This document shows positions 7,901-34,018 of a stretch of DNA of 64,000 bases, one piece after another. The first letter of the stretch is position 1. Every line of letters starts with the position of its first letter. The stretch spans positions 1 through 64,000 of the forward strand of contig NW_019091357.1 of the NCBI RefSeq assembly GCF_001949145.1. Direction: 5' to 3'. Under the pieces are notes generated by a model that saw only the letters and a list, made by a program, of their open reading frames with translations, was not told where the DNA came from and searched no databases. Position numbers and translations under genes: made by a program. The DNA comes from Acanthaster planci (Eukaryota).

Positions 7901-10900
7901 GATAGAGTACAGTCTGAATGTATAAAAATTCAAATAAGAATTTGTTTTCACTTCTGAATTTATTTTCATTTGATGCGGCTCGGGAATGAGTCACGTCCAT
8001 TCTCCTCAGCCATTCATATGCGAATGCTTAAAACTTACCAAGCACATAATTATTCCCATTTTTTGGTGTCTTTTGAACCAGTTCGTCGAAAAAATCGAAT
8101 TTCCTACGATGACCTTATATGTATACGACATGCGCGTGACGTGTACTGCAAGGCGGTGCACGGCCAGCAAGCGCTTTATCAAGTATTGAAAAGGGCCACG
8201 TGACAGGCTTTCGATTATTAACAGTGCCTAAACTGTCTTACGTATTTAATATAAATGAAGAACAAATCGTCAATCCAGGAACGGTGTGAACATATTTTAC
8301 TACAAAAAGTTTAAATTGCAAACCAAAAGAATTATACCGTCGGGTATGATTTTCAAAGAAAGCCTGAAGGCTAAGAACATTTATGAGGTTGGATTCCAAA
8401 ATCTCCATTCTTTGAGAATAGAAAAAAGCTCACGCGTGTGAATGGTAAGGGTATGTTATATTGTACGTTCCAAAGATCGAATTCAAAACATACTAATCGT
8501 AAATCAACTTACCTTGAAATTCATAAATCCCGATTCTAAATTCCCCTCCGCAGGTTTGGCTACCATCGCCTGTGCAAGGATCAGTGCAATTTATCAGATT
8601 GCCATCCAGTTGCGATCCATAAAGAAAAGGATTTGCAAAGGCGCCACCACAGAAGCACTGGTTGCCACCTTCCAGGCCGTAGTACTGGAAGTTTTTAGCT
8701 CTACAAAGTGACTGACAAAAATCGATGGTCATATTGCTGTTGCTTTCGCAATATCTCTCTCCAGGTCCACAAGAGTCCTGGCATACGCCCGCCATGCCAT
8801 CACACTTGATGAGATCCGTCATGATCCGGGCAGAACGATACCCATCACCGTCGAAGTAGCAGCCACGGTAAATACCTGCAGCAAAGGCATGAAAAAGTTA
8901 TGCATAAGATCGTTCAGCAGGTAAACTTCAACCAGTGGCGTATCCAGCGGGGAGGGCAGGGGGCAACTTGCCTTGACCCCCCCCCCCACGGACTTTTGTA
9001 TCATTACTATTTTTCAACTGATATCACTTGATAGGTAATTAGGAAAGAAATTAATCGGTACATTTATTTATTGTAGTAGTCTTGGGACTCCGCCCACTTC
9101 ACTGCTGTCTTGACCTGATCATGCCGTACCGTGGACGCGGGAAACACTTTTGAGTTCGTGGCTTAAGCAAACAGTTTCGTTCTGGTAGTCAATTTGGCCA
9201 ACTGATAAATATCCGCTATTTGTAGGGGGACACTGGGTATCTTGGTGACCTTTATGAACGCCATGTGTTTATTTTATGTGTAAATTGGGGACATTTTGCT
9301 TCTTGTCAGTGACTTCAGTCACGTAACCTCATTTTCTCACGTGTTTCCTGTGTCGTTTCAATGTACATGTACGTGTACGTGCATGTAGTACGGCATGAGT
9401 GGACCGGCGCGTGTGCGCGCCATGGGTGCATGAACTTGTGTACATGTAGTGTATATTGTACTTTTCCGCTGTGACCCCTGACCAAGGACTTGCAGTTTGT
9501 GCGCGTGTGCGCGCACAAACTGCAATCTTTCCAAGCTGTCAATGGGCGACGAAGCTGCACAAATAACGTTACACGTTTGGATCGTTGTGGGTTTACATTC
9601 TACTTTGCAGACAGTCACTCCTTTGGTGCTGTCATTATTGCTATTTTTATTTATGCTAAAATTCAATGTCATATTGCAGAACAGCCTTGAACGCATGCAG
9701 CACGTCAAGTATATGTGATTAATCCAGCGATTGTTGGCGAGGTGCTGGGTGAGTTTAATGCGTGTCCACATCCTTGGACTTTGTGAATTTCTTTGTAATT
9801 TATAATTTGAATCAAATATGATTATATTAATCACAGATAATTACTGTGCGATACATGTTATTTTTACTCAGGATTTGTTTATACTGGGATTTGTTTCTGC
9901 TGGGATTTGTTTCTGCTGGGATTTTGTCACAACCGGATCTTGTTATAGCTGGGATTTTGTTACGGCTGGAAATCAATAAACCCAACATCAATCATCAACT
10001 TTGATTGACTGGTCTCTCTTACTGGAGGATAACACCTCACCCAACGTGGGCTAAGGGCTCACGTACCCCGAACCGACGCACACGCGTCGCTTCACTTCAT
10101 TATCAAATATCTTTTCTTTCCCCATTATTATGTTGACTGAGCCCGAAAGTGCATGTGCGTTTTCAATGTGCCCCTGAAACCAAGAGCTGGATACTCTACT
10201 GAAGTCAACACGCTATAATATTTCATTGCAGGACGTAAGAATTAAAACGTAACACTTGTTTTCACTTAAAAGTATTTTTTCTTCAAAAATTGGGAAATTT
10301 CCAAAACAGGAAAACTATGCACGGTAATTTTACAGCTCAGTGGTAAACAGTATTTAAACAATCATTAAAAAGTGAATTCGAAATTATCTTAAAGCCGTCA
10401 GTGCCAATTTATGGTGGCAAGGATAATACATGGACAAGCTTTCAACAGACCTTATGTTTTGCAATGAAACAAATCAGTTGTGTTTTTCACATTTTAGACA
10501 TTGACCTACACTCAAAACAGACAAATTATTTTACGCCAAAAGCCTGATTCTTCAAATTTGACTTGGAAGATTATGTAGGTGCAAATGTCGAGTTGGTTTA
10601 GTAGCAGAGAGTTGCAATGTATATGAACCACATTGCCAACTTTGTCAACCCGTGGTGTACATTTGGATGGAAAAAAGTGGACCTTAATCATAAAAAATCC
10701 AACAGCATATGTCTACGTAAATCAATATTTATATTTACAGGTTCAGACTGATTCAAGTGTGAATTTATGCCTGACAAAGGGTTCAATTAACTACGAGACT
10801 CGCCGCAACCCAAATTCATGACGCCCACAACCTTGCCCAATTTACAAACCTCAAGCAAAAGATAGTCCTCTCTCAAAACAAGAATAGGTTTTGGGCAGTC

Positions 10901-12146
10901 TCCGCTCTCCGGTTGATAAGAACTGATACGCAAAAAAGGACAGTAGTCATGAAGTATCTCCACAGAGAAGTCAAGCTTATCCTTGAGGGGAAGTTTATCT
11001 TACAAGAACAGATCTCCTTATATTTGTAGGCTCTGAGGGCTGTGCGAGTTATTCGGTATTCTGCTCCCGTTAGTCTCGCAAATTTAATTTCATTATTTGA
11101 TGTTGCAATTTCACAAAATAAGTTTTTAATGGGGAAAGTATATTTACTTTTAGCTATAAATGCCCCGTAGAAACCATTAGAGGTTCCCAACGTACCATTT
11201 ACGGTTACCACTTAATTTGAAAAGTTTTCACTTTTATATTTTTCAATAAAATATATCCTTTTTTCCAGTCAAAAATAAATTTCAAGAGAGACTATTTTTC
11301 CTTGGTTTATTGTGTGAAGGCGTTTTCCTTCTATGCGGCTGCAGCAAATAAAGAATAGAAATTTTTTTTCCACTTTCCTTTATATCTGGACTAGAGGCCT
11401 CGCACCTGAGGTTGAAGTTTTTCAAGATACGATCATATCATTGTTCGAAATGAATGGTTCTGGAATTTGTCATGAATCGCAAAAGCACGTACAAGGTTAT
11501 TTGGTTTCATGGCCAGGACAATATTCATATCAAAACTAGGATTAAAGTGAAGTGATTTAGGCATAGGAATATGTGTGGGTTTTTTTGGCAATAAAATCAC
11601 CGGATTTAAAGACGCATGTTTAGGTTCTCACGTAATTATTATGAGACCTTGAGGGGGAAGTTACATTTCATCCACAAAAATCTCACCTGCAAATTGTTCC
11701 CCCAACCCAATATTCATTGTAAAGGTTTTAAAGACTTTAGATTCTGTGAGAGGTTAATCTCAATGATTTGAACTGGTTTATTGTTAAGAAAAAAATAATC
11801 GACAGTTAAACCCAAGTTAAAACAAAACTCAGAACACTTACAGTACTGACCGTTTCCATTGAAAGCTCAAGTCGGGGATATAGCAATCAGATGAGACCGA
11901 AAAGTATCTCCAAGCTGTACACAAGCCACCAGCCAATAAAGACTTATGACACACGAATGTTTGATACTCGCATAAGATTTTTTTCCCATCCACTTTACTT
12001 CCCCTGGTTGGCTGAATGCAATTTTGACAAAAGTACAGTTTTAGTTTCTTGCATATACACTTACCTGTGGATTTACACTTTCCTAATGAAAGCAGCAAGC
12101 AAGTCACAGCTAGTAAAACAGTTTCGATACCAATTTCTTGTTTCAT
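4934..12146 (-). CDS. Gene A: WSC + CCP(Sushi) type I membrane receptor, about 498 aa, 7 coding exons
   Basis: Exons 12146-12065 (signal MKQEIGIETVLLAVTCLLLSLGKCKST), 8875-8513 (WSC: YRGCYFD...QCFCG...CGGEFRIGIYE), 7891-7685 (CCP: CFFPG...FTCQPGF...CVGNRTWSSDVLPIC), 6932-6846 and 6301-6197 (S/T stalk), 6007-5920 (TM DYLPYIIGGAAGLLLLLVICMVCVVAC), 5498-4934 (tail ending ATKL). All GT-AG, frame continuous (1497 nt). The 6301-6197 and 7685 donors are weaker. Confidence 0.88.
9490..9525. repeat. Perfect 16-bp hairpin
   Basis: ttgcagtttgtgcgcg-tgtg-cgcgcacaaactgcaa, in intron 1 of gene A. Confidence 0.85.
9866..9972. repeat. Degenerate minisatellite, about 6 units of ctgggatt(t)tgtt(tctg)
   Basis: Repeated ctgggatttgtttctg-like units read directly. 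Confidence 0.75.
10292..10302. promoter_or_regulatory. Rel/NF-kB-like site in intron 1 of gene A
   Basis: GGGAAATTTCC fits the kB consensus; motif match only. Confidence 0.3.
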
Positions 12147-13641
12147 ATTTCCACTGTAGATTAGTCAAGATGTACCAAAAACTGATTTCACTCCTACTAA
12201 ATGTCCCGCAGTTAGAAGAAATGATCTCTTTCTCGGTTTCAGAACGTCTGCCGGAAGTAATGGTGCACACCATCAGCCACCGATTGCTTTTGGCAAGTAC
12301 TCGATTATATCGTCACCGCAATGCTAAAAGGTGTTTTTCTACGTACGCACCACGAAGAAAAGTGTAGTACATTGTAATAACAATTTTCTCCCGCCTCGGT
12401 GCTTTCTGACCTGAGTGCTAATCCCACTGTCCTTCTGGGTATACGAGCGGGTCATTTTGACTAATTTTTATCGCGCAACTCGAAAATTGAAAAATTGGGC
12501 AACAAAGCACAGAAATCCAGGATAAAGTCGCCATATTTGACATATTTTCAGTGTGACTCAGTGTGCGCTTTCTAGTAATCTGAAAAGGGTTTAAAATTAA
12601 AAGAAGTGGTGAAAAAAGTAATATTAAACACACTTTTAAAAGAATTTGGAAAAGGAAAGAATAATACAATATTTGACGATCGCAGAAAACAAACGAGTTG
12701 TTCTGACAAAGATAACTTTATTCCTGTAAAGTCTCATTTATAATGCCAAAATGTAGAAACAAATGTAAAACAAACGAGATTTGAGATGCGCACCTGGGTT
12801 CTCTGATGATGGTGTAAGTATTATAACAATAATGTTGAGTCAATGCCATTAGTTTTTGCGGGAACTGCTTTGGTATATCTGGTCTACCCATAAAACGAAG
12901 TGAATTTATAAATATTTATAACGAACAAAATTACAAAAAAATTATACTTGTGACCCAAAACCAATAACCTTATCTAGAATGTCTCCGATTAGAATGACCG
13001 CGCCGGTCGACAGCTTCTATCTCATAATTTCTGTTCATTCATTTGAACTCTAAGTTAAGAAAGAGAAATTTTGAAGAAGTAATGGTCTTCGTTTTTATTT
13101 GTGCTGATCTCCAATGTTACGGTAGTGGTAAATTTAAGCTGTGTTGCATTATACTCGAGGCTCTGTTAGATGAAGCGGGGTGTCATTATTCCCTTTTACT
13201 CATTAGTTGATCGAGCAAGCAACAGTTTCAAGACGACGGTTATGTAGAAATTATTTTTCAATAGTACTTTATGAAGAGTTTATAAGGTTCTTACACTTAC
13301 AATAAAACTGTAGAAACATGGTACCCAAACCATATGTGCTTCCATTTCTAAATTACGTTATTTATAATCTTTAACAATTCTTTTATTGTACTTTTTCAAG
13401 TGATACCTTTCTCGCCATATCATGTAAACATACGGAAAGTGTAACGGAAGAAGGTTGTGAAAACGTTATCCTTGGTCATAATTACTGTCTAAAGGGGGTT
13501 ACCTAACATAAAATTTTCTTCACTACGAATTCCTTTCGTCATCAAGGTCGCTTGCTTTGAGGACAAACTCCCCCGTAAATACTTTTTATGAATATGTACA
13601 ANNNNNNNNNNNNNNNNNNNNNNNNNNNNNNNNNNNNNNNN

Positions 13642-13796
13642 GTGTACTCTGTCCGTCTTCAGGAGTCTTTAGGCAGTCTCCTGAAGACGGACAGAGTACA
13701 CTGTTCGAAACGTCGAGTTATTCCCCGGTTCTTCTCAGAACCACATATACTCAAAGAAGAGATAAATACATGGTGTTACCGCAATCTTTACTATAG
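13642..13796 (+). mobile_element. Penelope-like element terminal-repeat remnant with inverted duplication
   Basis: 24-bp inverted repeat 13642-13665 / 13678-13701 followed by ...ttcgaaacgtcgag; the CTGAAGA...CGAAACGTC core is typical of Penelope pLTRs. The left copy runs into the N gap 13602-13641. Confidence 0.6.
13678..13717 (+). ncRNA. Minimal type I hammerhead ribozyme motif (Penelope type)
   Basis: ctc-CUGAAGA-c-[ggacag/agtaca/ctgttc]-GAAA-cg-UC-gag: conserved core, 6-bp stem II, palindromic ACGT at stem III, only 3-bp stem I. Confidence 0.55.
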
Positions 13797-14646
13797 ATGT
13801 ACAATTTAGTAGCAAAAATGATCCACGTTAAGGGCGAATGACGCACTATGGAGTGGAAAACATCCGTTGTGTTATCATTTCATTAAAACGTGCATCATCC
13901 CCCATAATGCCGTCATCTGGCTCCCTTTAAACGAGCACTTCTTTGTAAACGTTACAGACCAAAATGGGAAATTCAATTACGACCGATGGCTTACATTCAA
14001 GTACAGTATGCCGTCCTACGTGCATGTACAATAGGCTTTTCAGAATCTTTTGGACCACTGTCAACCATTTTTGTTTGATTCCGGTTACTTTCACCGCAGT
14101 AAAAGTTTATGACGGCTGGCTGACTCACTCCCAAATATGGTTAACTCCTAGACGCGCTTTCACAAGCCTTTCTTCCTCTCTTTTCTTTGACTGTTTACCA
14201 ATGCTATTATCCCGTCCTAAAATATGCAACCTTTTCACGCCCTCTGTATACCAAACATATTCAAATAACGCTATTCACATTCAAATATTTAATCTTTTCC
14301 CAGCAAGCACTGAACCGAGAGGCCTACTGACGTACCGCTATTGTAAAGTATTATACCTGCTATGAGCTCTGTTGGGCCTGCATATCAATACTGCGCTTAC
14401 AAGCACAGTCAAGAGAACTCGATTGGGTCAAGAGCAAAAGCCGCCCCAGATGTGTTACCGAATCCTAGCGTAATAGCAACATCAGAATCTGCTCTAGTTT
14501 TCCTAAACAGCGTTAATTGCAAAACAGGTTTCGATAGTTTCGTGTTTGTAAGTACAGAGCACCGTGGTTCATTTCCCCGTGTAATCACAAGAAGCAACTC
14601 GCTGAAACGTGGGCCGCCAGTCGGAGATATTTAGAGAACTGATACG

Positions 14647-17600
14647 ATGTTGAAGGTTGCCGTATGCATTTTGGTTGTGACTTGTTCGTTTGAATCAGGA
14701 TTTAGTCAAGACCCAACAGGTGAGGAATCATCCTGACTAACATGATTTGCAACCAAGACAGTAATCACAACTGGGATATACATTTCTCCATTAAACATTC
14801 GTGCTATGGCATTTCTTATACGTGTATTCACTTTGGTTGCCAAAAGTAAAGTGTCATCAATAAAACTGAAATAAAAACTACAGCCTGTTTTATAAAGAGC
14901 AAAAAAGTGCCACAGACATAGCACTGTAGTTCTCTCCCATTTGGGCCACGCTAAACTATGTTATTAGTCATGGTTAAGATGAATCTTTGGTTAACAAAAT
15001 CATACCGTGCACTGTATGTCCTTTAAATGACTGGTTTGCTTTGTTTTCCTTGGATTTATAGTTATTTCCTGAACATTCATCCGTGTGCAATGTCGATGTT
15101 TTCTAAATCACCGCAATCAATTTTGTTCAGCACCACTCTTTTTACATAGAACTGTCTGGTGGCACCTCCTTTACAAATGTTAACCCTTAAGACTCCCTGA
15201 GTGCTAGGCGAGTCCGCTTGTTCCAAATGTTTTGATCGAACTAATCACAATCCTGCTGTGAACGCTCTATTCATAACTTTATATCAAAGCTCTTTCAAAG
15301 GAGCTCCTCATTGGGTGAACTAAATTTCAATACGCATTTTCCAAAATGTTCGTATTTCGTTTTCTATTTGGAATGAAAAATCATGTACCACACTGTGCTC
15401 AGAAATGTCTGCTTGTGTCATCAAAGCGTGATGGCAATGCTAATGATCATCATTCTTGGATTAACCTTCAAAGCCAATTTACGCGTGAAGCATTCGTTTT
15501 CAGAATGGATTTAATATTAGAGTGCTTAGCTGCTTTCTGGAGTTGACATATGCTCCTAAAAGCTGCATGTCATATTTTTCTTTCAGATATTAACCATGGT
15601 TGTTATTTTGACCATTCTCAACGGGCACTGACGGATCTCATCACCTGTGATGATGCAAGGGATTCGTGTCATTCGTCGTGTGGAATTGAGCATTCTTACT
15701 GCCAAAGCACGGGAATGACCATTGATCTCTGCAGGTCTCTCTGCAGGATAAGAAACCTCCGATATTACGCTCTGGAAGCCGGAAAACAATGTTTTTGTGG
15801 AGGTGCCCTCTCAAATCCATTTGCATACGGAAGGGCAGATGGGGCTACAACCAACTGTTCCCATCCTTGCACTGGTGATGTAAATAAAACGTGCGGTGGG
15901 GAATTCAAAATGCAAGTCTATGAATTTAGAGGTAAGAAGTTACCTTATTATTTTAAACACCATGAAATGTATTGTTTGATAAAAACTGAGGATTCATGAT
16001 CAATGATGCATTAAAAATAAACTTACATGTATAAACTATAATTTGTATGTCCTAATTAATTCACCCAATCTCAAATTCTTCCGATTACATTCAGTAATTG
16101 CTCGAGTCATAAGGCCTCTCAAGGCCCTGGCAAAGATACTCATTCACTTTCAGTTTACATAACATGTCTAATTCATCGCTTTTATTGCACCATCATGCAT
16201 CCCAATTTTATATCTCAAATGTGTCATTTTTTCACTCTGTAGGTCCAGTGGATGGCGCGGACTGTTTCCATCCAGGTTTTGTGGAGAACTCTTATATATC
16301 GGATGGTGTGGCCATTACAACCGGAAATAGGCTCAATTTCATCTGTCTGCCCTTACATAAGATTACTGGGGAGGCACAACTCCTTTGTCAGTCCAACAGG
16401 ACATGGGTACCTGCTGTGCTCCCAAGCTGTAGCTTCACCGGCGTATCAGAAGGTAGACAAGCCAACACCAAACCCAAGCGGACACGTCCGTTACCCATCC
16501 ATTATGGTAGTACTCATTGTAACAGGTGATATGGTTGGGTGGTGGAAGATCGTGAAATACATGCACAATCCTCCCCACAACTAAACTCGGCCTAGCATTG
16601 TAGGCCCTGTTGTTTTGGAAGGAACGAATTTTTTTTTTAAAAAAGGCCTATACGTATTTGGATCTTAGTCACAGTGTAACTTTCGCCTCACATTTTTGCA
16701 ATCAATGGTGAGGATTGGGCCTTAAGATTTTGATGGTAATGATGTGAGGTAACTGCACGCAAATGTTTACCACAAACAACTTCCAGCACCTGTGTTGAGT
16801 TGATTTGAGTGTCGCTAGCAGTGGTGAAATTTTTAAGGATCAGAGTGGGCTTTCTGTGAGATCGGTTTGTGTGCATAGGTATATAAAAAACTTACTGATC
16901 CTGTTTCCCATATATACAATCACTCATTGACGAAGAGTTATTTTTTCATGACAGATACTACGACGGAGGTTGTAAAGACTACGCAAATTTTGAGCACCGC
17001 TCAGACTACTACGGCATCAGTGCCACTAACCTCTATAACTGGTAAGATTACTCTGTTCATTCCAGATTATTACCAAGGCATTTAATCCTGCAGAAGTACT
17101 CTTCTTTTCTGAATGGAATAAAGTCAGTTCAGTGCCACTGATCCTAAAAGCTCTATATAATCCTTAAGCATACAAAAAGTTGTCAAACGCATGGTGTAAG
17201 GTGTTTATAAGCCTACATGTACTTTATCAATGTTTGGAAAGCCTTTACTTTTACGTCAAACATTCCCATTTTCTAAGAAAACCTTTTAGCACCTTTCAAT
17301 ATGTTTCTCTCTCTGCTTCCGTTCGTCACTTTCTGATTCCACTATCTTTAACTAGGAAACCTTCCACTTGTTTGTTCAAAAGGGTAATCTAGCGAGGGGA
17401 TAGTAGTCCTGAAGACGTAACAGTGAATAATTGAGCCTTTTCCATTTTCTGTGACAAATTGACTCACAAATCTTGAGACGGCATTAAAAGTCGTGACTGC
17501 GTTTTATAACAGTAGTGCTGCAATCACACGTGACAGCCTTTATGTCATGTCAGTGAACTTTGGATTGGTTTTTCAATGATCAACTCATAAGAAGTAGTTT

Positions 17601-19296
17601 TGAAACCTTTATGGAAATCAAAATTCAACTTGTATTCATGTAAGTATTTTCTTTGCAGCTGTCTTTTCCTTTCAAAATTGTATAATTTAGATTTTGTTTT
17701 CGGAAAAATATTTGTGATGGTAATATTCTGCATGTCGCACTTCTAGTTTTATTTTAAACTAGTTTTTCAAGTGAAGCAGCATCGTTCATGTCCTCATGTA
17801 AGTTGGTTGTACTGAAATTACCTATTACCTGAAAACTGTATCTTCCTTGTCAGATTTCCTACCATACATTATCGGTGGCTCGGCTTTACTACTCTTCATC
17901 CTGGTTGTGTGTTTAGTCAGCATATTTGTCTGCAAAGGAAGGTGGGTAAACTGTTTAAGAAACTACATGAATTAGCTTGCAGCTTGAAAAATTTAAACTG
18001 GGATTGGGGGCTTCTGAAGAAGCACAACTAAGCACTGTGGCTTCTATAGTCACTATCTGTAAAAAATACGCATTTCTCTATTGTGGAATTACATGTAATT
18101 CAAATTGTTTCGTTGCTGTATACGAAGAACATAATCATGTCAGGTTGTTTGCATAAGCTTTTGACCCGTAAAATAGGTATTTCTTTCCCTCTAAAATCCT
18201 ATCTGTAAGACCCAAGAATGCAAAACGATGGATTTCAAATCAATTAAAAACTGAGATGAAAATATTCCAAGGCTGCGACATTTTCACCTTTTGTTTGGCA
18301 TTTCAGTGCGTTTTACGCTCCAGTACCAAACCATATTTTCTAAAAGCAATTCTGAGTAAGAGTAGGCGAGTTCTGTTCATGACAAATTGTTTACTAAAAC
18401 CAAATATGGAAAATGTAAAGTTTTTCAGACCTTTTTCAAATAGCAATAGGTTAAATTTTTAATTTTTAACATGTCAATATGGCAAACAAGAAAATTAAAA
18501 CACATTATGGTCCTTTAGCCTTATAATTCAATCACTATTGCTCACGTAATGTGTTACTACCTCTGTTCATTTTTCTACATGCAGGAAGAGGTCTGGTAAC
18601 TCTGGTCAAGATATTCGCCTGAAGCCTGAGGCATCACCTGTTACGTTCATCAACACTGGATTCCATAATGATGAAAACGAAGAAGCTAAAGTGGAAATGC
18701 CAGATATCCTGTCTGAAGCCCGTAATGCATCCTCACCCAGTCCATCCAGCTTTTACCACACGCAACTCTCAACATTCTCAGAGGACCCTGTCTACTCTAA
18801 CAACGATGCAGTCCGTGCAAATGATACAAGTCCCACTACATATGCCAACGTGAATGAGGGAGTACCATCCACAGACAGCCCACCGAGTCCCATATACGCC
18901 AACTTTGAGACAGTCTTACCAGAGAGTAATTCCGGATATACTAAGCGGTATTCTGCTACCACAGATCGACCAAATCAAAAGCGTGGGTTGTCCTCCGACG
19001 ATCCTGTCGCAGTGCATGCCACTGGGAATCGCCGAGCTAAAAAGAATGCCACAGGGACCAAAGACTTGGTTGGGTGGAGTCGACCAAGTTCTCTTTACCA
19101 GCGCACGACACTGGATGACGATGATACTGAGTCCAATGAGGACAACACAACCATACAACCACATGACCTTTCTGCCGCTATCTACGCCCAAATCGACAAA
19201 AGTCGGAGAAGTGATTCCAGAGAAACTCTCAACTCCGAGCATTCAGGAAACTCCTTCTTTGCTGACCCTGCCAAATCATCAGCAACAAGACTATAG
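14647..19296 (+). CDS. Gene B: WSC + CCP(Sushi) type I membrane receptor, about 504 aa, 6 coding exons; paralog of gene A
   Basis: Exons 14647-14719 (signal MLKVAVCILVVTCSFESGFSQDPT), 15587-15931 (WSC), 16243-16452 (CCP), 16955-17041 (Thr-rich stalk), 17854-17941 (TM DFLPYIIGGSALLLFILVVCLVSIFVC), 18585-19296 (tail ending ATRL). GT-AG, frame continuous (1515 nt); 87-nt and 88-nt exons match A. Confidence 0.9.
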
Positions 19297-19956
19297 ATTT
19301 GATGACGATTAAGAATTTCTTGGCAATAAAAGCACTTGTATCCCATCGACATCTGAAAAGTGTAACTTATGTGGATGTGTATCTGTTGCTTATGAAAACA
19401 CCAAGATTCGTCACTGGAAAATGGGTCAATTCGGGGTATCAAACAATTCGGAAAACAACCAAATCCATTTACCATCCATATAGGGATCATTACAACTATG
19501 ACAGGTTTCCTAAGATTTGGAGTAAGACTCCATTCAATTTGTGAAGATTTGATATTCGAATTGTCCGAGGATTACTTGATGATGTTCAAATCGTTTTACT
19601 TGCTGATTTTTGTGCAAATCATTTCCCTGATTGTGATTCCATTTGTCTTTAAAAGTCACGTGTCACGATTCATTGCTGATGACTTTACTGTGGTTATGCG
19701 TGTAACTACTACTCCTTCCTATTCCTTTGTGAAGAATTTATGCACCCATTAGATTTTTTTGGCAATATTTTAAAACCAAGACAAAGAACGGGTGTTCAAG
19801 ATCTATTCTTTGGATGGATCATTGTAACATTTATCACAAAGTCCTTTTTTGTTCAATGTTGCACGTTTTCCCTAGCTCATTGTAAAAAGTAGAGCAATTA
19901 TGTGTTTGAAAATACGAGTGTAAACCTATTGCAAGAAATACTGTATTTCTAGCAAA

Positions 19957-20412
19957 TACACGGCGTATCAAAATATAGGAAATCCAAATTCAACCATAAT
20001 TTGTAGGAAAATTTCAGATGTCTTAATTTGCAATATATGTCCCAAGAAAGGCCTGAATCTATTCTTTCCAATGAAACCTTGATTATGTGCTCAATGTTAC
20101 GGTTAGACGAGTAACAATGCATCGTTGACCAGCAGGTGAAAGTTAGCATATGCTGTACAGTAGATGATACTTAGGCCAACGTACGCGCTTTTGAATGTAT
20201 GTAAGCTAATTTGTCACAGTGCAAATTTCACCCGCTAGTCAACAATGTGCATTGTTACTCGTTCAACCTCGACACGATGAGCACATAATTAAGGTGTCAT
20301 TGAATAGAAGACATTCAGGCCTTTCAGGACATATAATGCATTAAGAAATCTGCAGTTTTCCTTTAACGTATGGTTAAATTTGGGTTTTCTTGATGTTGCT
20401 ACGCCCGGTGCA
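19957..20412. mobile_element. Fold-back/MITE DNA transposon with about 200-bp imperfect inverted arms
   Basis: Arm 19957-20155 (aaaggcctgaat...attatgtgctca...cgagtaacaatgca...gttgac) is mirrored by 20215-20412 (gtcaac...tgcattgttactcg...tgagcacataat...attcaggccttt). Confidence 0.8.
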
Positions 20413-21593
20413 TGTAGATACACCCATCTGTGTCACGAAAGACACAGCTTTTTAAGTTAATGGAATATTTCTTTGTTAAGAGGTATTAAACTTTGAAGGT
20501 TGTACTCTATTACAAATTGCCATAAAATAAACACAAAACACTGGAAAGCTGATACTGAGTAGGAAAAAAGTGCGATCGTAGGTTCGAGAGCTGCCGATAA
20601 TCAACCAATGTAGTTCTATCAAAACCGCAGAGGTTAAGCATTAAGATTTTCTAATGTTCCCATATAATTATTCGTATTATAGTGCATACTTTCAAACAAA
20701 CATAATCGTATTTTCTATAGTCATTTGTTAAATATTTTAATCCTTTCCATAAATGGACATTTATGTAATTATTATAATCAGATCTGCAGATTTCGATAAA
20801 TTTATGGACTTGTGTGTAGAGATAGAGTTGATTGTAAAATTTTAGCATAGCTATCCTTTATTATTTAGGCTTAAATGCATTAATAAGTATTAATATTCGA
20901 TTAATCACAAATGTAATACAAACAGTATTTTACTTCAACCATTTTTATATGAACAATTGAAAGAGTAAAGCTATATACACGTAAAGAGAAAATGAACTAG
21001 AAACTTCACATGTAGCTTTTTTCCTATACATCATGCACCAGCTTCGATTTCCTATATCACCCAATAACTTGAAAACACATCGAAATTTTGGGAAATGTCA
21101 TTTATACAAACGATATTTTTCCCTGCTGAAAATTTGATACATTATCTGATACTAAAAATACCAGGATAAACTGATCACCGCCTTAAAAAGCATCGCACCT
21201 TAAAAGGCGTAGTCTGTCGGTGAATCATTGATTTCCATGGTTTAATTAACTTTACAGCTGTTCGTTTGGCCCTTTGTCAAACAATAAAATCTGATTTCGC
21301 AGTAGTTGCAGAATAAAGTCAGCGCTCATATATCATGTTTGGCTGTAACACCTGTTTGAAACAAATCAAACGGTCACAAGGACATTAATTTTGGTGGTTA
21401 AATATAGTACCACGGTGTTTTGCGATGGAGCAACATTCACCAACGATTACGAACTGATCGAGCATGCCTGAAAGACAAATTTCATTTTTCCTCACATCTC
21501 TCAGTATGATAACATTTTTACAAATAATCAGGGTGGTCATTATCATTTTTATAATTTTCAACAAATTAGTGGCTGGAAATGTATAGGGTGTAT

Positions 21594-21806
21594 CTATCCG
21601 CCCCGAGCTAAAGTGCACCCCCAGTCGGCGAAAGAAAGACGGATGGTTACAAGCGGATTCTTGCACGCGTTCTGCGTGTACACAAAGACCATACAGTAAG
21701 GAAAAATCGTTACGCGTAGTCGGTGTCAAGCGCGCCATTGATAAACGCGCAGCTATGCCGTGAGTACCAAAAAACATGCCCTCTTTAGTTTCGCCCGGAG
21801 CGGATA
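21594..21806. mobile_element. Possible small MITE
   Basis: tatccgccccgagctaaa and tttcgcccggagcggata are inverted (15/18) around a CpG-rich non-coding interior. Confidence 0.4.
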
Positions 21807-23880
21807 ATTAGTTGATGGTTGATATATTGTTTTTACACTCAAGTGAGACAGTACCGAGGAATGTAATTCCTTCGTACGTGTATGTCAACATCCAGTAAGG
21901 GGATATTTTTTCTCCACAGTTGCACTTAAGGTATTTCAGTAAAGGTAATTCCTCATAAATCCACAGTTGAGATACCATTGCTATTTCTACATTGTAATGT
22001 ATGGAACAGGGGCGCAGATGTTCATTTCTAACAGAAAATTCTGACATTTGACAGGCGCCGAGCTTAATTTGATAAAGTCACTGGAAATTTCTCACGAAGT
22101 GGATCCTGCGAGTTTGTAATTGATTGATAATTTCCCCAGGGTGGATTTGTGTCCAACCTTTTATAAATAATGAAAGGCTTTTGATTGAACAAGGTGTGGT
22201 GCGTATAATTCTGTGTACATACCCATCGAGAATGCTTCAGTGGGGCATGATTTATTCTTATCTGCTTAATATGAAATGAAATAGTAATGAGAAAAGATGA
22301 ACGCAGGTCATTTGAGTGACAAAGCAATATGCGCAACTGCGCTATATTTGTTTTGACATGACTTTTACAATAATATTAATAACTGTTTGTGCGGCAACCT
22401 GTACCGCCAAGAGTCCTTCCATATCAAGCTGTCGTAAACTTGTCTTGTAAATGCATTATGACGGGCTTGATCAATATTTCCTCAGACAACAGCGAACTCC
22501 AAGTCACGAAGCGTAAGGTCAACCACTCGAAGAAATCGTTTATATTCAACCTAGTCTACCTATCGAGATAAATTCATTTTTAGACGCGTGACGCATGATT
22601 CATTTCACTAATATTAATAAAGCAGACTGACCATCATGTGGTCTGCAATTTTGAAGATCTCGTTTTGTTTAAAACACCTTGACTGATAAACTTAAAGCTT
22701 TAAGTTGGTTTTCTACAGTCAAAGCGATCCGTATTGATTGATTGTTCTTAAAATAATAAGCACGCATGTTTGGCGATTCATTCAGTACCACTCTCCTAGA
22801 AATCAGATTTGAAATAAGGACTGAAAGCAATACATACACTTTAAACCAGAAACCTAAGCAGGCCTGTCATTGTTAAAGGACCACTACTGAAATAACTTAA
22901 ACGAAAATGCACGATCCAGTGCACAAATGTCGACAAAACATGACTTCTCTTCGCTTCTTTCAACCAGCCACAAAATTGCTAATTTTAGGGGCTACATAAT
23001 AAAGAGATCAGAGTAAAAAACGTCATGGTCCAGTTTGCGCGTCATTACGTACTTCATGGAAATAAAAAGACTGTGCGGGTGGAGCTGCTAATTGTGCGGG
23101 TTACTATCACGATCCGCTATTGTTCTATAGGGTTGTGGCATGACAGTAGGATTGTGTGGGTGACTGAACCCGTTTCATGAAAAAAGCATGAAGGTAGGAA
23201 AACCAACTACCAATTTGAAAGATTCAAGACTACTGTTTGACCTGTTGAGAAATTCATCTCTGTCGACAGTTGTCTTTCATGTTTATCAACCTCCACGTTT
23301 TATTGTTGCTACATCCTGCCTCATTATGCCAGGAGCTACAGCTACCAAAACAACCTGACGAGGCATCCATTATCTACACGTTCGCAAAGGCACGGACAAG
23401 GACAATTCCAACAAGGTGAAATTTCCAGTACCGTCTACTCGTTGTGAATTGCCTGATTTGTGTTTATTTAGCGGGCGCGAAATAGAGTTGTGCAGCAGAC
23501 TGCAAACTTGTCGTCGGGGCAAACGTGCTACATTGCCAAGGTCCTTTGGATATCTAGTTGCGAATCGTCAACATTTGTGATGCACTGTATGTTTGAGTCA
23601 GTATGTGTCCATAGATTATTTAACTTATCCGCACAGGGGAGTTATCTGTGGCTTTCTAATGCATCGGTCAATCACTGGTCATCGATCGCGTGTGGATGAA
23701 ATAACCTGTGGATTTTGCAAGCATTCGATTATACCAGTGGTCACTTTCGCTCTTTGTTTCACGCTGTTGGGTCTTCGTTCAGTCCTTCCATTAAATATTT
23801 GGCGACTGATTCATCAGCAATTTATAAAGCGAATGTTGATCTAGGTTGCTCAGCAAAGTGTTAAGGAGGAAATACAAAGG

Positions 23881-26800
23881 ATGCCTGCCTTCAACTGCTT
23901 CATCGTCGCTCTTCCCGTTACCATGGTGTTCGTCGTTAGCACTGCATATGGTCAAGGTAAAGGGGACATGTCTTACATCCACTCTGTGTTTCTTCCATCA
24001 TTATGATTTGGTGTTGGCTTGATATACCGCTTTCATCCAATCATGGTTTAAATTCACAATTCTTTGTTAATTAAAGGTCAGCAGGGTTACAATGATATAC
24101 TTGCGTGAGCTCTCAAGATTATTTCCCTTAATGCATCTTTTGCATTCTCAGAGAAAAGCAGATTACAATCACAGACACTACAAATTAACATTTAAAAGTT
24201 ACACACCGCACTGAGTGAATAATTTGTGCCTTGTCATAATTTTGCATGTTCCAGAAATCAAAGAACTAGGTTTATTTTGTCTTGTGCTCCGTAGCATTTT
24301 ATTGTAAAAATATATTTGTCTGGATTTTGAAAATCCTTCTTTGAAGTTTTAATGACCAGAAGGGTGTCATGAGGGCATGTTTTTAAACTCAATATGTAAT
24401 ATGCAGCATTTGAGATTATGTGATAACCTCCTTTTTTATGACTTTTCCTTTAATCTTTGAAGACAAATTACTGATTTCATAATTGGAATTCTATCGCAAT
24501 ACGAAAGACGAATGCGCGCGATCTTCTCCACTGATTTAGAGTGGGAATAGGACATCTGCACTGAAACCAAAGGTCCCGAGTCACATTTTCTTGGAAGCAA
24601 TATGATTAAGTAATCCCGTTTTTTAAACGGCAGAGCAAACTATTGTGAAATGAGATTTAATAATTCTGTCAACAGTTCTGCATTCTTTCCTACTGCACAT
24701 GGTCTGCTGATTGTTTTTTCCGGTTAGAGCAAGCAGTAATATCGCTTTTTTTTCTTTTCTGTGCTGACTGTGTAACACGCCGGCGCTGAAGGTTCCCCAT
24801 TACCTATGTACAATGCAGATAACCTTTCATTTATTATCTACACGTTCTTCTCTATAGTTTTACCAGATTTGCTTTAAGCTCTTTACGAGTATATTTGTAC
24901 GTTACGTTTCCTTGGAAACGTACCAATGATACATCAGGGTTTCGCACTAAACATTTCGGGAACAATATCCATGCTTGTTTTCTGCATCGTTGCCCTATAC
25001 AATGAACAGATTCCAGTGAAAATCTGTGAAAGAATCAGGGGTCGACCTCCCCCCCCCTTGCTCTGGGACAAAAAAAGTAATCAAAAGGGCGAAATAATAA
25101 AAAGAATAACTACAGTAATTACACCAATACCATTGTAAACAATGCGTGTCATCTGATGTTTCATTATCGTTTCTAATCGTCCACAACAATAAGGCATTAA
25201 AAAATCTCCGGCCTGCCCCCCCCCCGAAAAATTCCTGGATCTGCGTAAAAAGCGTTTTATATAGCGGTCTGGAGATGTCCCACCATTCTAGTTTCAAAAA
25301 ACATTAAGACGTGTAATTCATAGCAGAATACTGAAGTAATTAACGAAATGCCTCAAACCGCGAGACGAACATGCTAAGTGAGAATTTCTATACGCTATGA
25401 TGGCCTTAGCAACGGACCAGCCGTAAACAACACAGAGGTACTGGAGTATTTATTTCTCCAACAAGCGCTTTTCTCCATCTCAATTGACCCAGAATGTCTG
25501 GTTAGCCTAATCAACACAAACCCTTCGTGTATTATTTTACGCAGCCTGCTATCACCGGGTGAGCGGTTACGAACCGCTCTGTCACGGTCACGAGACATCG
25601 CCCGCTACGGAGCTAAATTGCTATCATTTAAAGGTGTGGTACACGCCCATTTAATTGAGTCAACCACATGAAGCAATTAAGTGAACTGGTATGCTGGCTT
25701 ATTTAATTCCTTATACTCTGGTGAATATTCTATTGAACGTGCTATGATTGCTAAAATTTTACAGAAAGCGTAATGGGAAATAAGTGGAGTTTCGTTTTGA
25801 ATAGTTGTTCAGGCATGCTGTGTATAGAAAATTATTTCAAAGACTTCCATCGTTCCTTGCTGTAGTATTTAGGGACGCTCAAGTCGGTATCAGGCAAATT
25901 CTAGATGGGGATAGTAACACGACCTGTCAGACTTAAATCGAAACAGTTCCTATCTTTCACCATTTCTTTCAGTCTCATTGTCCTTCATGGACTAGTGGAC
26001 CAGCAACACGTTTTACTATGCTTTTCTAAATGTCTCTCCGAAACTAGCTTAATCAAGGGGCTACCTTTATGCTTATATCAAAGCACAAAAGAAACAATTA
26101 CTGTCAAACTGTCGAGTTGTGAGACAAGAATAATAAATAAAGAACGAATATATTTTGGTCAATGTAAAATATTGAATGCATAGTTGCTCAACGTATACAG
26201 GACCAAGTATATGGTGTTATTATCTAGGGCTAAGACCAGTGAAACCGAGAGTGAGGTTGAGCCTCAGTGCGGGGACTGTTCATGGAATGTATGTGCGATT
26301 CACTATTTCACTATAACTGATTACAAACAGAAAAATCTCCATGAAAAGTTTCATATGACGAAAGAGATGCAGAAAAGGGAGAATTTTCTATGATTTTCGT
26401 AAATACCTGTTGTTTGTCAAAATTTGGAGGATGTTGTTCTAAAATTCCTTTTTTTTAAATGCCGTACTTGCCGTAAATCAAGTCCAACATGTAACAATCA
26501 GTGCTGTCCAGTTCTCACGGCCATAATGTAAAATGTCATACATTTGGATATACATGCACACGTTTGTCAAAAACATATCTTTTCCGAAAATCTATAAATG
26601 AAATGTCATGGTTTCAATGTTCTAAATCTGTTCAGCTGCAAGTAGAAAGTAAAGGCTTTCGAGCCTGCTTACGGATTTAAAGCGATAAGTGTACACGCAT
26701 CCCCACTCCCCCCTCCCATTTCAAATTGCGGGATAATGTCATTATGGTATAAACTGTATATAATCTTATCCTATCTATACCTTTAAATGAAGTAGAATAA

Positions 26801-29800
26801 AAAGATGACAATTGCCATCTGGCGAGATTTGCCGAGAGTTGTCGAGCCTGGTCTTGAAAATAAAATTTACGGGAATCTTCAATGCAAAAAATCTGTGAAC
26901 CATTACTAGATGGTAGAGCCCTTTCCATCCCAATATTTGGATGTTTAATATTGTTCTGGAGATTCCCTTGATAAGAATTTTCCTTATCAAAACATGAATG
27001 GTAATAGACGTGATGTGCGTATGTTTTTTTGTTTTGTTTTGTTTTAATTTGCTTACAATTCTTCACCAACTTAAAGTACAGTATTAAAATTCTGTCGTAT
27101 TAACATGGCGAAGGTCACCAGCACTGAAAGTTATTCACCAATCTGAAAACTATTTTACAAAACATTCTCTCAGAATGATTCAAATATCTTCAAATGCATG
27201 ACGGGCAAAAGTGTTCAAAACACTCAACATTTTACTGAATCCCTACGAACACAGAAGAGGTTAACAGATACAGTACGGCTGGGTCTCATCTGTTTTATTT
27301 TTGTTTTAGACCGACCCACATCATACATCGTTTAATCGACCTATTTCACAGCACCAAGATCAATTTAATTAACACAGTGATTAGAAATGTCTTCAACCTT
27401 GGAAGACTGTAGTCTTCCTTACTGATTTGCTCCCTAAAGAAGGGGCCACTTGTAGTGAGGAAATTAATTTTTGTGGCCGTGAACCGCCTTTTCGCCTGAG
27501 GTGTCCATTGTAATGCTCATATGCAGACGATAGAGTACATATACAGCGATTTTCCTTCCTCCATGGTTAGATTACAATGATTCATCCTATACATAGGCCT
27601 AAGTTTCTCGAAACGCAAATTGAATATGGCTTGCACATAATGAACTGATTTAAAATAACAGCGATGTGCGATCTATGTCCTTTAATCATTTCAAACATTT
27701 GCAAAACAAGTTAACACAATAGTCGAAAAAATTATAAATTCTTTCATTTCTCTCCTTTTTAAACGTCCGTCATTAATATACGTCAATTGATGAGATACGC
27801 AAGTCATCTACCCTCATAAGCTCAGTTTACCCAACTGGAACAAATGACCACCAATGCTGGTACAATAAACATTGAGCCAAGATCCCGGCTAATGATAAAT
27901 GTAAACAAAAAATGTACAGGACGTGTATTAGTCTTTTGTCAAAAAATGCTGTGATTAGCGAGAGTAACGATACTTAATTACTTCCCGCTGAATATCACAA
28001 CGTAATAAGAAGGTGTGGTCCTTGACAAACTGAAATGTTGTGTGTCCGGATAAACGGAGAAAGGTAGGTTTAGTAAGTCTTGAAAAGGTTACAATGGAAA
28101 AAAAACTATTTTTCAGGCGAAGAAACGTTTCCGGTTTAACTGATGACTTGTCAATCAAAACCAAAGTCGTGCATTTTGTGCATCGGGCTTTCACTGTCAA
28201 ATTAATGAAGTTAATCGTGGACTGAACTGATCTCGTAAAAGCAAAGGTAACTCAAATTTTGGCGTGAAACTAGGATACCGTGTCTTGACTCTTTCAAAGT
28301 CTGAATGAACATTTTTTTAGATTCCTCTACGAAGATTAGACAGGGGAGCGAATGCATCATGAGTCAGATCTAAGTGAAACACTGCAGAAATCTCGGTCTC
28401 TACAGCGTTTGTTTCAATCACTGACGATTGCTCACATTTCTTCACGCAGATTCCCGCTACCTAGGCTGTTTCTTTGACTCTATCCCAAATCGAGTACTCC
28501 CAAATCTGACCTTTTGTGGTGATGTCATGGAATTATGCAACAACTACTGCAGTACTACAGTTCCCTACTGTCAGAGCTCTACAAACATGTCCGTAACAAC
28601 CTGTCTGGGCCTGTGTTCTGGCAAAGACTTCATTTTCGCAGGGGTTCAAGCTGGCACGCAGTGCTTCTGCGGCGATGGAACGGCTGCGTACGATATAAAT
28701 GGCGAGGAAGACAACGAGGACTATTGCAAGTCTAACTGCAGAGGAGACATAACTCAAAATTGTGGAAGCGACTTCCGAATGCGAGTCTACGAAATCGGTG
28801 AGCTATAATGATCGATAACAAGCTAGTATGAAGGGATGAGTCCGTCTTAGTTGACAACGGGTGGAAATATCTATAATTAAAAGCCAATGTCTAGACACTT
28901 ATGCGAATCAATTTCCGACAAGTACATTGCTTCATGAAGGTAATATTAGGCCCTATCAGTTTCTTGGCAATGATTGCCTTATAAGTATAAGAGTTGATCG
29001 CCAAAACTAAGCACTCAATCAAATGCGTGAACCCATGCGACTAGCGTATTTGAGTTTTCATGTATGCGCCTGTGCATTGTAAGTGTTCCCGTGAGCCATT
29101 TTTCGCAAGTCTTAACGTTACAGTGATTGAAATCTAGAAAGTCAGTAACTATTAATAAAAACTTCATCATTTGACAGGATGCCTGCCCATCGACGCACGA
29201 CCGCACACTACAGTCTTGCCGGCCAACGAGAACTTTTTTGAGGTTGGTCAGACTGTGAGTATTTCGTGTCAAAAAGATTTCTTCGCAACCGGTCCAGGCA
29301 ATCTGACGTGCCTGCCACTTGGAAGATGGGATCTTGCACCGCCATCTTGTCTCCCGAATGTTTGCAAGGCACCAGAGCCGCCACCGGGCACTGTCGACCA
29401 GGGAAATACAACCCAGGGTAGTTTGGAGTTCCGTGGAGGAGACACGCTGGCTTACAATTGTTCAGATTCAAACATCGCAGTTAGCATTAGCTGCATCAAG
29501 GGCGAATGGGTGGCAGACTCAATGTGTCCAGGTTAGCGGAAAGATGAGAACATGACAAAAAGGAGTTCACCTAAAAGATTTCTCAGAAGAAACGCCAAAG
29601 TTGTGCAAGAACACATTTCTTGTGAATAATTGAATCCAACAGAGCATGCAAATTTGGAGGAGTCACTTGAGAAACCTTGTTTCCACAATAAGGACCCATA
29701 TACAACGACGAGAGCATTAAACTGAATGTAGAGCGAAAGCAGTATGCAGGCGGTATGTTACTTTTACACACATGACGGAATCCCACGTTTAGTTCACAGA

Positions 29801-32800: not shown

Positions 32801-34018
32801 ATTGCTGCCTTTTTTAAAGAAAAAATGTTTCTAATTTCTAATATAGCCTAAGCGGGATTTTCCCCGCTTAATCTCGTGCGCACAGGAAAACTTACGATTG
32901 TAAAATCTTTTTTACAGAGCACTTTGATTTTGAAATAGCAAAAACGATTTATTAGGCTTTTCTGAAGAAAAAGTGGGCAAAGCCAGAAAACCTGCGGGAA
33001 AAATGATCAAAATCGCACCCCTATACATTTCCAAAGGCCCAAAAGGCTATTTGTGCGCATGCGTGTATAATTATGAATTTATTANNNNNNNNNNNNNNNN
33101 NNNNNNNNNNNNNNNNNNNNNNNNNNNNNNNNNNNNNNNNNNNNNNNNNNNNNNNNNNNNNNNNNNNNNNNNNNNNNNNNNNNNNNNNNNNNNNNNNNNN
33201 NNNNNNNNNNNNNNNNNNNNNNNNNNNNNNNNNNNNNNNNNNNNNNNNNNNNNNNNNNNNNNNNNNNNNNNNNNNNNNNNNNNNNNNNNNNNNNNNNNNN
33301 NNNNNNNNNNNNNNNNNNNNNNNNNNNNNNNNNNNNNNNNNNNNNNNNNNNNNNNNNNNNNNNNNNNNNNNNNNNNNNNNNNNNNNNNNNNNNNNNNNNN
33401 NNNNNNNNNNNNNNNNNNNNNNNNNNNNNNNNNNNNNNNNNNNNNNNNNNNNNNNNNNNNNNNNNNNNNNNNNNNNNNNNNNNNNNNNNNNNNNNNNNNN
33501 NNNNNNNNNNNNNNNNNNNNNGTGAAAAGGTCTATCACGTGTACTTTATTTGCCACCTTCACCATGAAACCTTCCAATCGCATCATTTGAAAATATTTAC
33601 ACTTTGCAGGAAAGCTGAAAGAGATAAACCGATCAATTTCCAAAGAAATTCCGAATTTCCGAAAATCGAGGATATATCACAAGTAAACTATGCGTACGAG
33701 GGTGACAGTGAAGACCAGCCACACCAGAATGGTCGCCAAACAACCGGATCACCAATCAGAATCAGTACTTTGCACTCACAACGGGAGATCACGGTAAACA
33801 ATAATGATAACACCCATAACTATGCAAACCCTGTCGCCCCTGCCTACACCATTAACCATTCGGGAACTGTTCCAAATGAATGTTCACCAGCTACGCATAA
33901 CCATATCATTAACGCCGAGGCGAGAACTGGATCGTGGGTGGACTTACCTGATATTCCGGAACCAGACTACGATATGGCATCGAGGGAATCATATGTAGAA
34001 GTTGTGACAAAACTTTGA
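23881..34018 (+). CDS. Gene C: WSC + 2xCCP + S/T stalk type I membrane receptor, about 516 aa, at least 9 coding exons
   Basis: Exons 23881-23956 (signal MPAFNCFIVALPVTMVFVVSTAYGQ), 28450-28797 (WSC), 29178-29531 (two CCPs), 30162-30224, 30694-30738, 31285-31338, 31665-31769 (stalk), 32470-32566 (TM MLWLIIIVGAALFFFVVVLFIAIITVC), 33610-34018 (tail ending VTKL). Frame continuous (1551 nt). Small stalk exons are less certain; the gap 33085-33521 could hide an exon. Confidence 0.85.

What the first reader, a model, noticed from the sequence alone, without database searches (positions are those of the whole stretch)
8513..28797. 12-cysteine WSC variant with a variable C-x6-C-x3-C-x6-C insert
Canonical WSC has 8 Cys. 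All three WSC exons have 12, with four extra Cys between C1 and C2 at identical spacing: A CDGMAGVCQDSCGPGERYC (8748-8804), B CDDARDSCHSSCGIEHSYC (15646-15702), C CGDVMELCNNYCSTTVPYC (28515-28571). Only the Cys and the Tyr before the last Cys are shared by all three. Inference: a disulfide-stapled variable knob that could set ligand specificity.
Basis: partly seen in the sequence, partly recalled or inferred. Interest (0 to 1): 0.82.

Follow-up and report, generated by a model that had tools for sequence, protein, structure and literature searches.

The report
Echinoderm receptors with 12-cysteine WSC domain
Three expressed crown-of-thorns starfish genes encode predicted cell-surface receptors whose outer WSC domain carries an extra four-cysteine loop, shared with other starfish and sea urchins; it is likely an old, disulfide-stapled family feature, and it changes no faster than another loop of the same domain.

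Summary
Three WSC exons each carry 12 Cys, with C-x6-C-x3-C-x6-C between C1 and C2. The window is Acanthaster planci; the three genes match RefSeq proteins exactly and are spliced in RNA-seq. Each encodes signal peptide, WSC12, Sushi, Ser/Thr stalk, one TM helix and a Tyr-rich tail ending T-x-L.

The insert is no local oddity: 28 of 681 scored WSC domains have it, all named ones from sea stars and sea urchins (nine species). Spacing is not fixed: only 9 of 23 have 6-3-6. A predicted model keeps the Kremen-type fold (Z 15.2, 92 of 114 residues aligned) with the insert as an add-on.

The 'variable specificity knob' is only weakly supported. One Patiria model adds a tyrosine kinase. Ten literature searches found no description. 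Verdict: real, apparently undescribed variant of a known domain; ligand not identified.

The parts
8748..8804 (-). Gene A four-Cys insert (C-x6-C-x3-C-x6-C)
   Evidence: translation
8513..8875 (-). Gene A (LOC110978649) WSC12 exon, phase 1-1
   Evidence: Pfam; exon model equals P0161; both joints in RNA-seq
12065..12146 (-). Gene A signal-peptide exon
7685..7891 (-). Gene A Sushi exon
   Evidence: PF00084
6197..6932 (-). Gene A Ser/Thr stalk exons (6846-6932, 6197-6301)
5920..6007 (-). Gene A transmembrane exon
   Evidence: hydropathy
4934..5498 (-). Gene A cytoplasmic tail exon (YANM, YINM, NPIY; ends ATKL)
14647..14719 (+). Gene B (LOC110978642) signal-peptide exon
   Evidence: exon model equals P0026; joint
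15587..15931 (+). Gene B WSC12 exon, phase 1-1
   Evidence: folded
15646..15702 (+). Gene B four-Cys insert
16243..16452 (+). Gene B Sushi exon
   Evidence: PF00084 just under the cut-off (20.5 vs 20.7 bits)
16955..17041 (+). Gene B Thr-rich stalk exon
17854..17941 (+). Gene B transmembrane exon
18585..19296 (+). Gene B cytoplasmic tail exon (three YxN motifs; ends ATRL)
23881..23956 (+). Gene C (LOC110978773) signal-peptide exon
28450..28797 (+). Gene C WSC12 exon, phase 1-1
   Evidence: 5' joint
28515..28571 (+). Gene C four-Cys insert
29178..29531 (+). Gene C Sushi exon (one Pfam Sushi plus a second Sushi-like repeat judged by eye from its Cys/Trp pattern)
30162..31769 (+). Gene C Ser/Thr stalk exons (30162-30224, 30694-30738, 31285-31338, 31665-31769)
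32470..32566 (+). Gene C transmembrane exon
33610..34018 (+). Gene C cytoplasmic tail exon (ends VTKL)

Best explanation
The three genes belong to a sea-star and sea-urchin family of predicted single-pass signalling receptors whose N-terminal WSC domain carries a roughly 20-residue, four-cysteine insert, likely gained once before the two classes split and likely closed by two extra disulfides. Shown: gene structure, splicing, domain order, 12 invariant Cys, conserved residues flanking the insert, and a rate of change like that of another surface loop. Predicted: the WSC fold is intact; the insert forms a short helix plus an extra strand packed on the strand before the helix, and its last Cys lies about three residues from the equivalent of Kremen1 N140, a ligand-contact residue. 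Inferred: the insert enlarges the edge of the ligand-binding face held out on Sushi plus a glycosylated stalk, each paralogue having its own slowly drifting version; binding of an extracellular protein would cluster the receptor, cytoplasmic kinases would phosphorylate the tail tyrosines to recruit SH2/PTB adaptors, and the C-terminal T-x-L would anchor it on a PDZ scaffold.
For: Exon models equal RefSeq proteins. RNA-seq joints listed for 6 of 6 introns of A, 5 of 5 of B and 6 of 8 of C. Four extra Cys in 28 of 681 scored domains; 27 of the 28 carry a species name and all are asteroid or echinoid. C1-C2 distance 42-48 vs median 24, maximum 38 in 644 domains without extra Cys. Flanks conserved: L17 23/23, D/N16 23/23, Y/F37 23/23, M43 23/23. 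Model pLDDT 79.3 with H20-23, E28-31, E36-39; Kremen1 Z 15.2, rmsd 1.5, 92 of 114 aligned. Rates: insert 1.74, L5 1.51, rest 1.07. T-[KRP]-L ends in 9 of 15 TM-bearing proteins examined, in both classes; YxN motifs in A, B and C (motif meanings are recalled). One relative carries an intact-looking Tyr kinase (P0061). Kremen1 binds DKK1 through WSC residues D125, N140, E162, S163, Y165, D201 (PMC5014086, section read).
Against: No ligand, tissue or signalling data. The model's insert has only pLDDT 67-70, and the tool gives no disulfide pairing. The background set is mostly multi-WSC, often fungal proteins, not a fair sample of animal WSC domains; in 254 of 935 hits C1 or the core could not be located and they were not scored. 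The insert has the highest mean rate of the eight named segments, and A vs B differ more in the insert (4/15 identical) than in L5 (11/20). Unrelated Cys-rich inserts in the same loop (L002, L006, L018) show the site tolerates insertions, which fits a neutral role. 6 of 15 proteins lack the T-x-L end. The WSC surface of yeast Wsc1 shows no ligand pocket (PMC9024836).
Confidence: 0.5

Rival explanations
1. One reading: the insert is a hypervariable, CDR-like knob under diversifying selection that sets ligand specificity in immune, allorecognition or gamete-recognition receptors.
For: Insert rate 1.74 vs 1.07 for the rest (p=0.001). Among seven recent Lytechinus duplicates 10 of 18 insert columns vary vs 25 of 83 elsewhere (p=0.04), with 7 of 9 in the Ca-Cb segment (one of six groups tested, uncorrected, chosen after looking). 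Length varies in Ca-Cb (4-9 residues). One read variant, V to F at 28560, lies in the insert of C (5 of 9 reads in one run). Tandem duplicates exist in Lytechinus and Patiria.
Against: Not faster than L5 (p=0.35; p=0.09-1.0 in all six groups). Insert identical across three Diadema proteins from two species (0 of 20 columns vary). Likely orthologue pairs 28/48 vs 35/59. Only three A. planci genes were returned by the protein searches, a small family for an immune repertoire. dN/dS among A, B and C is unusable because pS is saturated (0.62-0.85).
Confidence: 0.2
2. The receptors work like fungal Wsc1 or WSC lectins: the WSC core binds glycan or matrix, or senses mechanical load through the Ser/Thr stalk, and the insert is a tolerated, self-stapled decoration with no role in recognition.
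For: [quoted passage not shown] WSC domains bind beta-glucan in fungi (passages of PMC9024836). The same loop carries unrelated 2-Cys and longer Cys-rich inserts in other eukaryotic sequences.
Against: The insert and its flanks (L17, Y/F37) are kept in 23 of 23 family domains across two classes, more than a dispensable decoration would suggest. The Sushi domains and tyrosine motifs point to animal-type protein signalling (inference).
Confidence: 0.22
3. The family acts as a Kremen-like co-receptor for Dickkopf, with the insert standing in for the missing Kringle half of the binding site.
For: Equivalents of Kremen1 D125 and D201 are acidic in 23 of 23 and 21 of 23 family domains; the D201 position is acidic in only 3 of 26 canonical domains. 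Sea urchins have Dkk1/2/4 and Dkk3 (passages of PMC12550998). Kremen1 is the top structural match.
Against: No Kringle or CUB in A, B or C. The E162 position is Gln in 17 of 23 and the Y165 position is never Tyr. Kringle residues D88, D90, W94, W106 and Y108 make much of the DKK1 site. Kremen1 is the only animal WSC among the top structural rows, so the match is expected. The 23 sequences are related, so the counts are not independent.
Confidence: 0.06

Closest known systems
WSC domain (Pfam PF01822; PAN/apple-like fold)
   Same: Passes the Pfam cut-off; all eight canonical Cys present with canonical spacing after C2; predicted fold matches Kremen1, a Fusarium glyoxal oxidase WSC and yeast Wsc1 (Z 15.2, 13.5, 12.6).
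   Different: About 20 extra residues and four extra Cys between C1 and C2; 644 of 681 scored domains have no Cys there.
Kremen1/2 (Kringle-WSC-CUB-TM)
   Same: Type I membrane protein with one WSC domain; acidic residues at two of the DKK1-contact positions.
   Different: No Kringle or CUB; WSC is N-terminal and followed by Sushi; tails are 140-240 residues and Tyr-rich against 60-75 residues in Kremen.
Yeast Wsc1/Slg1 cell-wall sensors
   Same: Signal peptide, N-terminal WSC, Ser/Thr stalk, one TM helix, cytoplasmic tail (Wsc1 layout partly recalled).
   Different: Eight-Cys domain in Wsc1; no Sushi; a fungal pathway. The NCBI names 'SLG1-like' are automatic labels.
Drosophila Wsck receptor tyrosine kinase (recalled: WSC-FN3-TM-kinase)
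   Same: Patiria model XP_038056137 joins a WSC ectodomain to a tyrosine kinase.
   Different: Sushi rather than FN3; NCBI names it angiopoietin-1 receptor-like; the three window genes have no kinase. No direct comparison with Wsck was run.

Membership tests
WSC domain PF01822 | Score above the Pfam gathering threshold | tested here: met
   47.3, 44.1 and 46.4 bits vs 27.8
WSC domain PF01822 | Eight conserved cysteines | tested here: met
   All eight present plus four more in 23 of 23 family domains
WSC domain PF01822 | Five-stranded sheet plus one helix wrapped by loop L5 | tested here: met
   Predicted model only: pLDDT 79.3; Kremen1 Z 15.2, rmsd 1.5 over 92 residues
WSC domain PF01822 | CGG motif at C8 (PMC9024836) | tested here: inconclusive
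   CGG in A and B, CGS in C and most urchin members; CG invariant
WSC domain PF01822 | Disulfides C1-C6, C2-C4, C3-C5, C7-C8 | not testable with these tools
   Pattern from PMC5014086 and PMC9024836; the folding tool reports no bonds
Kremen | Kringle-WSC-CUB ectodomain | tested here: not met
   Only WSC and Sushi found in A, B, C
Kremen | Binds Dickkopf with LRP5/6 | not testable with these tools
   Only residue equivalents were counted
Yeast Wsc-type sensors | WSC, Ser/Thr stalk, single TM, cytoplasmic tail | tested here: met
   Layout present with Sushi interposed; a resemblance of layout, not orthology
Yeast Wsc-type sensors | Signals to the cell-wall-integrity pathway | not testable with these tools
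   Animal genes; no cell wall
Receptor tyrosine kinases (Wsck-like) | Cytoplasmic tyrosine kinase domain | tested here: not met
   None in A, B, C or elsewhere in the window; present only in the Patiria model P0061
Known small Cys modules (for the insert alone) | Match to a Pfam family or Atlas cluster | tested here: inconclusive
   1 of 3 inserts gave Big defensin E=0.052, 14.1 bits vs cut-off 25; best Atlas hit 0.83, unnamed; 28-33 residue queries are weak

The most novel reading that the evidence does not exclude
Echinoderms evolved their own recognition-receptor family by grafting a disulfide-stapled, CDR-like loop onto a WSC domain, diversified it by tandem duplication (hot spot between the first two added cysteines), and coupled the same ectodomain either to tyrosine-motif tails with a PDZ anchor or directly to a tyrosine kinase, giving paired receptors for self, mate or microbe recognition.
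Probability: 0.17. Interest if true: 0.7.

Novelty: new variant of a known kind. Interest (0 to 1): 0.4.

Why it matters
The eight-cysteine pattern is treated as the hallmark of WSC domains. Here a 12-cysteine form defines a receptor family kept in sea stars and sea urchins that databases label 'uncharacterized', 'SLG1-like' or 'selectin-like'. It gives a diagnostic motif, shows that the C1-C2 loop accepts stapled insertions, and offers a clean swap experiment on the open question of what animal WSC domains bind. If the kinase-bearing Patiria form is real it is a receptor-kinase architecture worth naming. Without a ligand or phenotype it remains a lineage-specific domain variant of moderate interest.

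Tried and rejected
Single-sequence folding of exon C failed (pLDDT 34.7). No whole genome was held, so the A. planci family size rests on protein searches. Idea that the insert is a duplicate of the C2-x3-C3 helix: rejected; a profile from 852 canonical windows scores the insert -12.9 against -14.3 (sd 7.6) for shuffles and +16.3 for the true helix, and the model puts a strand there. Insert as a known small module: nothing above cut-off. dN/dS among A, B, C: synonymous sites saturated. Polymorphism count from RNA-seq: coverage too low, and 45 variant rows were not shown. The run search listed no holder on record as RNA; expression evidence comes from the raw reads laid afterwards. A fourth WSC exon or a kinase in the window: none. 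Sea cucumbers, brittle stars, crinoids and hemichordates: none returned, but the word-indexed searches are insensitive and the profile search listed only 150 of 5650 hits, so absence is not shown. A homodimer prediction was not obtained, so self-association is untested. Earlier scan findings: three look-ups, nothing. Literature: ten searches, including gene identifiers, gave no description of this variant; the library lacks most subscription papers. The supplement of PMC13409769 (Asterias rubens coelomocyte surface proteome) could not be read and might list the A. rubens member.
Full report
Observation. The three peptides are in the sequence exactly as reported: A at 8748-8804 on the minus strand, B at 15646-15702 and C at 28515-28571 on plus. 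The pattern occurs 3 times in six frames of the window, against a mean of 0.05 in 100 shuffles. Each lies in an exon that passes the Pfam WSC cut-off, though the match begins only at model position 16-21. Inside the insert only four Cys and the Tyr are common to all three.

The genes. Protein searches returned 100%-identical records named Acanthaster planci LOC110978773 (C), LOC110978649 (A) and LOC110978642 (B). Exon models built from window coordinates translate exactly to those proteins, with GT-AG at every intron. Raw RNA-seq reads give joints for 6 of 6 introns of A and 5 of 5 of B (9 further joint rows not shown) and 6 of 8 of C (the joint after the WSC exon of C was not listed at that low depth). 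No listed joint removes the insert. Each protein reads signal peptide, WSC, Sushi, Ser/Thr stalk, one hydrophobic helix and a 140-240 residue tail with 6-8 tyrosines. A and B sit head to head with start codons about 2.5 kb apart. There is no other WSC exon and no kinase in the window.

Range. A profile of nine domains was searched against the large collection, after a profile of the three window domains against the representatives. Scoring every WSC hit in the 195 stored proteins gave 935 hits: 254 could not be scored (no C1 or no core located), 644 had no Cys between C1 and C2, 8 had one, 1 had two and 28 had four. The 28 include isoforms of the same gene. The C1-C2 distance is 42-48 in these against a median of 24 and maximum of 38 in the 644. 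The background is mostly multi-WSC, often fungal proteins, so it is not a fair sample of animal domains. All 27 named carriers are sea stars or sea urchins; with cluster members the species are A. planci, Patiria miniata, Asterias amurensis, A. rubens, Strongylocentrotus purpuratus, Lytechinus variegatus, L. pictus, Diadema antillarum and D. setosum. A metagenome scan gave 40 loci, of which one (L001) is a further 12-Cys exon from an unnamed source. Other echinoderm classes and hemichordates were not returned, but the searches are too limited to exclude them.

Spacing and conservation. In 23 aligned domains (one N-terminally truncated record dropped) all have 12 Cys. Spacing is 5-9, 3 and 6-8; only 9 of 23 have 6-3-6, none of the 13 urchin domains. 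L001 has 4-4-6. The flanks are strongly kept: D/N16, L17, Y/F37 and M43 in 23 of 23.

Structure. Folding exon B with a 50-row alignment gave pLDDT 79.3 and pTM 0.77; the insert region scores 67-70 and shows a short helix (20-23) and strands 28-31 and 36-39. The model matches Kremen1 WSC (Z 15.2, rmsd 1.5, 92 of 114 residues), a fungal glyoxal-oxidase WSC (13.5) and yeast Wsc1 (12.6); PAN/apple domains follow at Z 5 or less. About 22 residues are thus surplus. In WSC topology the strand before the helix is beta-2 (PMC9024836, section 3.2 read), so I infer that strand 36-39, which holds the fourth Cys, is core beta-2 and that most of the insert lies in loop L1, where canonical PAN/apple domains carry hairpin insertions (same paper, passage). 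The tools gave neither residue-level equivalences nor disulfide pairs, so this placement and the two extra disulfides are inferences.

Is it a variable knob? Site rates on a maximum-likelihood tree give means of 1.74 for the 15 non-Cys insert positions, 1.51 for the 19 positions of L5 between C5 and C6 (p=0.35) and 1.07 for the other 87 positions (p=0.001); a 15-position window in L5 reaches 1.75 (columns absent from gene B were dropped, and sites were treated as independent). Three likely orthologue pairs (B with Patiria P0164, C with Patiria P0003, S. purpuratus with Lytechinus P0171) sum to 28/48 identical in the insert and 35/59 in L5. The insert is unchanged across three Diadema proteins. 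The insert is therefore as variable as a normal surface loop, with a possible hot spot in its first segment. Unrelated Cys-rich inserts in the same loop in three GC-rich metagenome sequences (L002, L006, L018) show that the site tolerates insertions. Origin by duplication of the C2-x3-C3 helix was rejected.

Mechanism. The ectodomain layout, tyrosine motifs (YxN in all three; YxxM and NPxY in A) and a C-terminal T-[KRP]-L in 9 of 15 TM-bearing proteins examined suggest kinase-less signalling receptors with a PDZ anchor; the meanings of these motifs are recalled, not tested. The longer tail end [FY]-[FY]-x-D-P-x5-A-T-x-L is shared by A, B and urchin members. One Patiria model, XP_038056137, joins a B-type ectodomain to a tyrosine kinase with intact motifs; it diverges from its kinase-less paralogue near an exon boundary of gene B, so it could be exon shuffling or a fused gene model. 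Kremen1 contacts DKK1 through WSC residues D125, N140, E162, S163, Y165 and D201 plus Kringle residues (PMC5014086, section read). By alignment N140 falls about three residues after the fourth added Cys, and the D125 and D201 positions are acidic in 23 of 23 and 21 of 23 family domains. I therefore favour the insert extending a protein-binding face (0.5), ahead of a glycan or mechanosensor role with an incidental insert (0.22), a positively selected knob (0.2) and a Dkk co-receptor (0.06).

What is known. Ten full-text searches found no description of a 12-Cys WSC domain or of these genes. Seen as passages plus one section each: PMC9024836 and PMC5014086. Seen as passages only: PMC10855680, PMC12784826, PMC12550998, PMC3927609, PMC1934368, PMC13409769 (its supplement could not be read and may list a family member). 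All others were seen only as search listings. Subscription literature is largely outside the library. The domain is a WSC member by score, cysteines and predicted fold; the proteins are not Kremens and the window genes are not kinases.

Verdict. A real, expressed, apparently undescribed variant of a known domain that marks an echinoderm receptor family. Interest 0.4.

Noticed in passing
P0061 (Patiria miniata XP_038056137): Gene model joining a B-type WSC12-Sushi ectodomain to a different TM segment and a tyrosine kinase with intact motifs; either a new receptor-kinase architecture or a fused model.
   Followed up: partly
window 4934-4975 (-), 19255-19296 (+), 34000-34018 (+): All three tails end in T-[KR]-L; the longer end [FY][FY]xDP-x5-ATxL is shared by A, B and sea-urchin members, suggesting a conserved PDZ-type anchor (motif meaning recalled).
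   Followed up: partly
window 12146-14647: Genes A and B are head to head with start codons about 2.5 kb apart; a shared promoter region is possible. A repeat-like stretch near 13660-13800 attracts many partly matching RNA reads.
   Followed up: no
window 46413-49518, 54117-54835, 58233-58541 (+): Three further Sushi exons without WSC; the first belongs to an apparent signal-Sushi-TM-tail gene read by eye, and the second has a TM-like exon near 54.8 kb. The region looks like a cluster of small Sushi membrane proteins.
   Followed up: partly
L001:537-872: Another 12-Cys WSC exon (phase 1-1, spacing 4-4-6) on an unnamed metagenome contig.
   Followed up: partly
L002:255-698, L006:102-560, L018:215-640: GC-rich sequences with unrelated Cys-rich inserts in the same C1-C2 loop of a WSC domain (a long one in L002 and L006, two Cys in L018): apparently independent insertions at this site.
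   Followed up: partly
window 28560: G>T read variant changing Val to Phe inside the insert of gene C (5 of 9 reads in run X22).
   Followed up: partly
window 4700-19600: Coverage of A and B exons differs strongly among four RNA runs (near zero in X14, highest in X21), suggesting tissue- or stage-restricted expression; samples are not identified.
   Followed up: no
P0186, P0172 (Lytechinus): The WSC12-Sushi unit also appears with EGF and CUB domains or a somatomedin B domain in gene models, consistent with shuffling of a phase 1-1 exon or with model errors.
   Followed up: no
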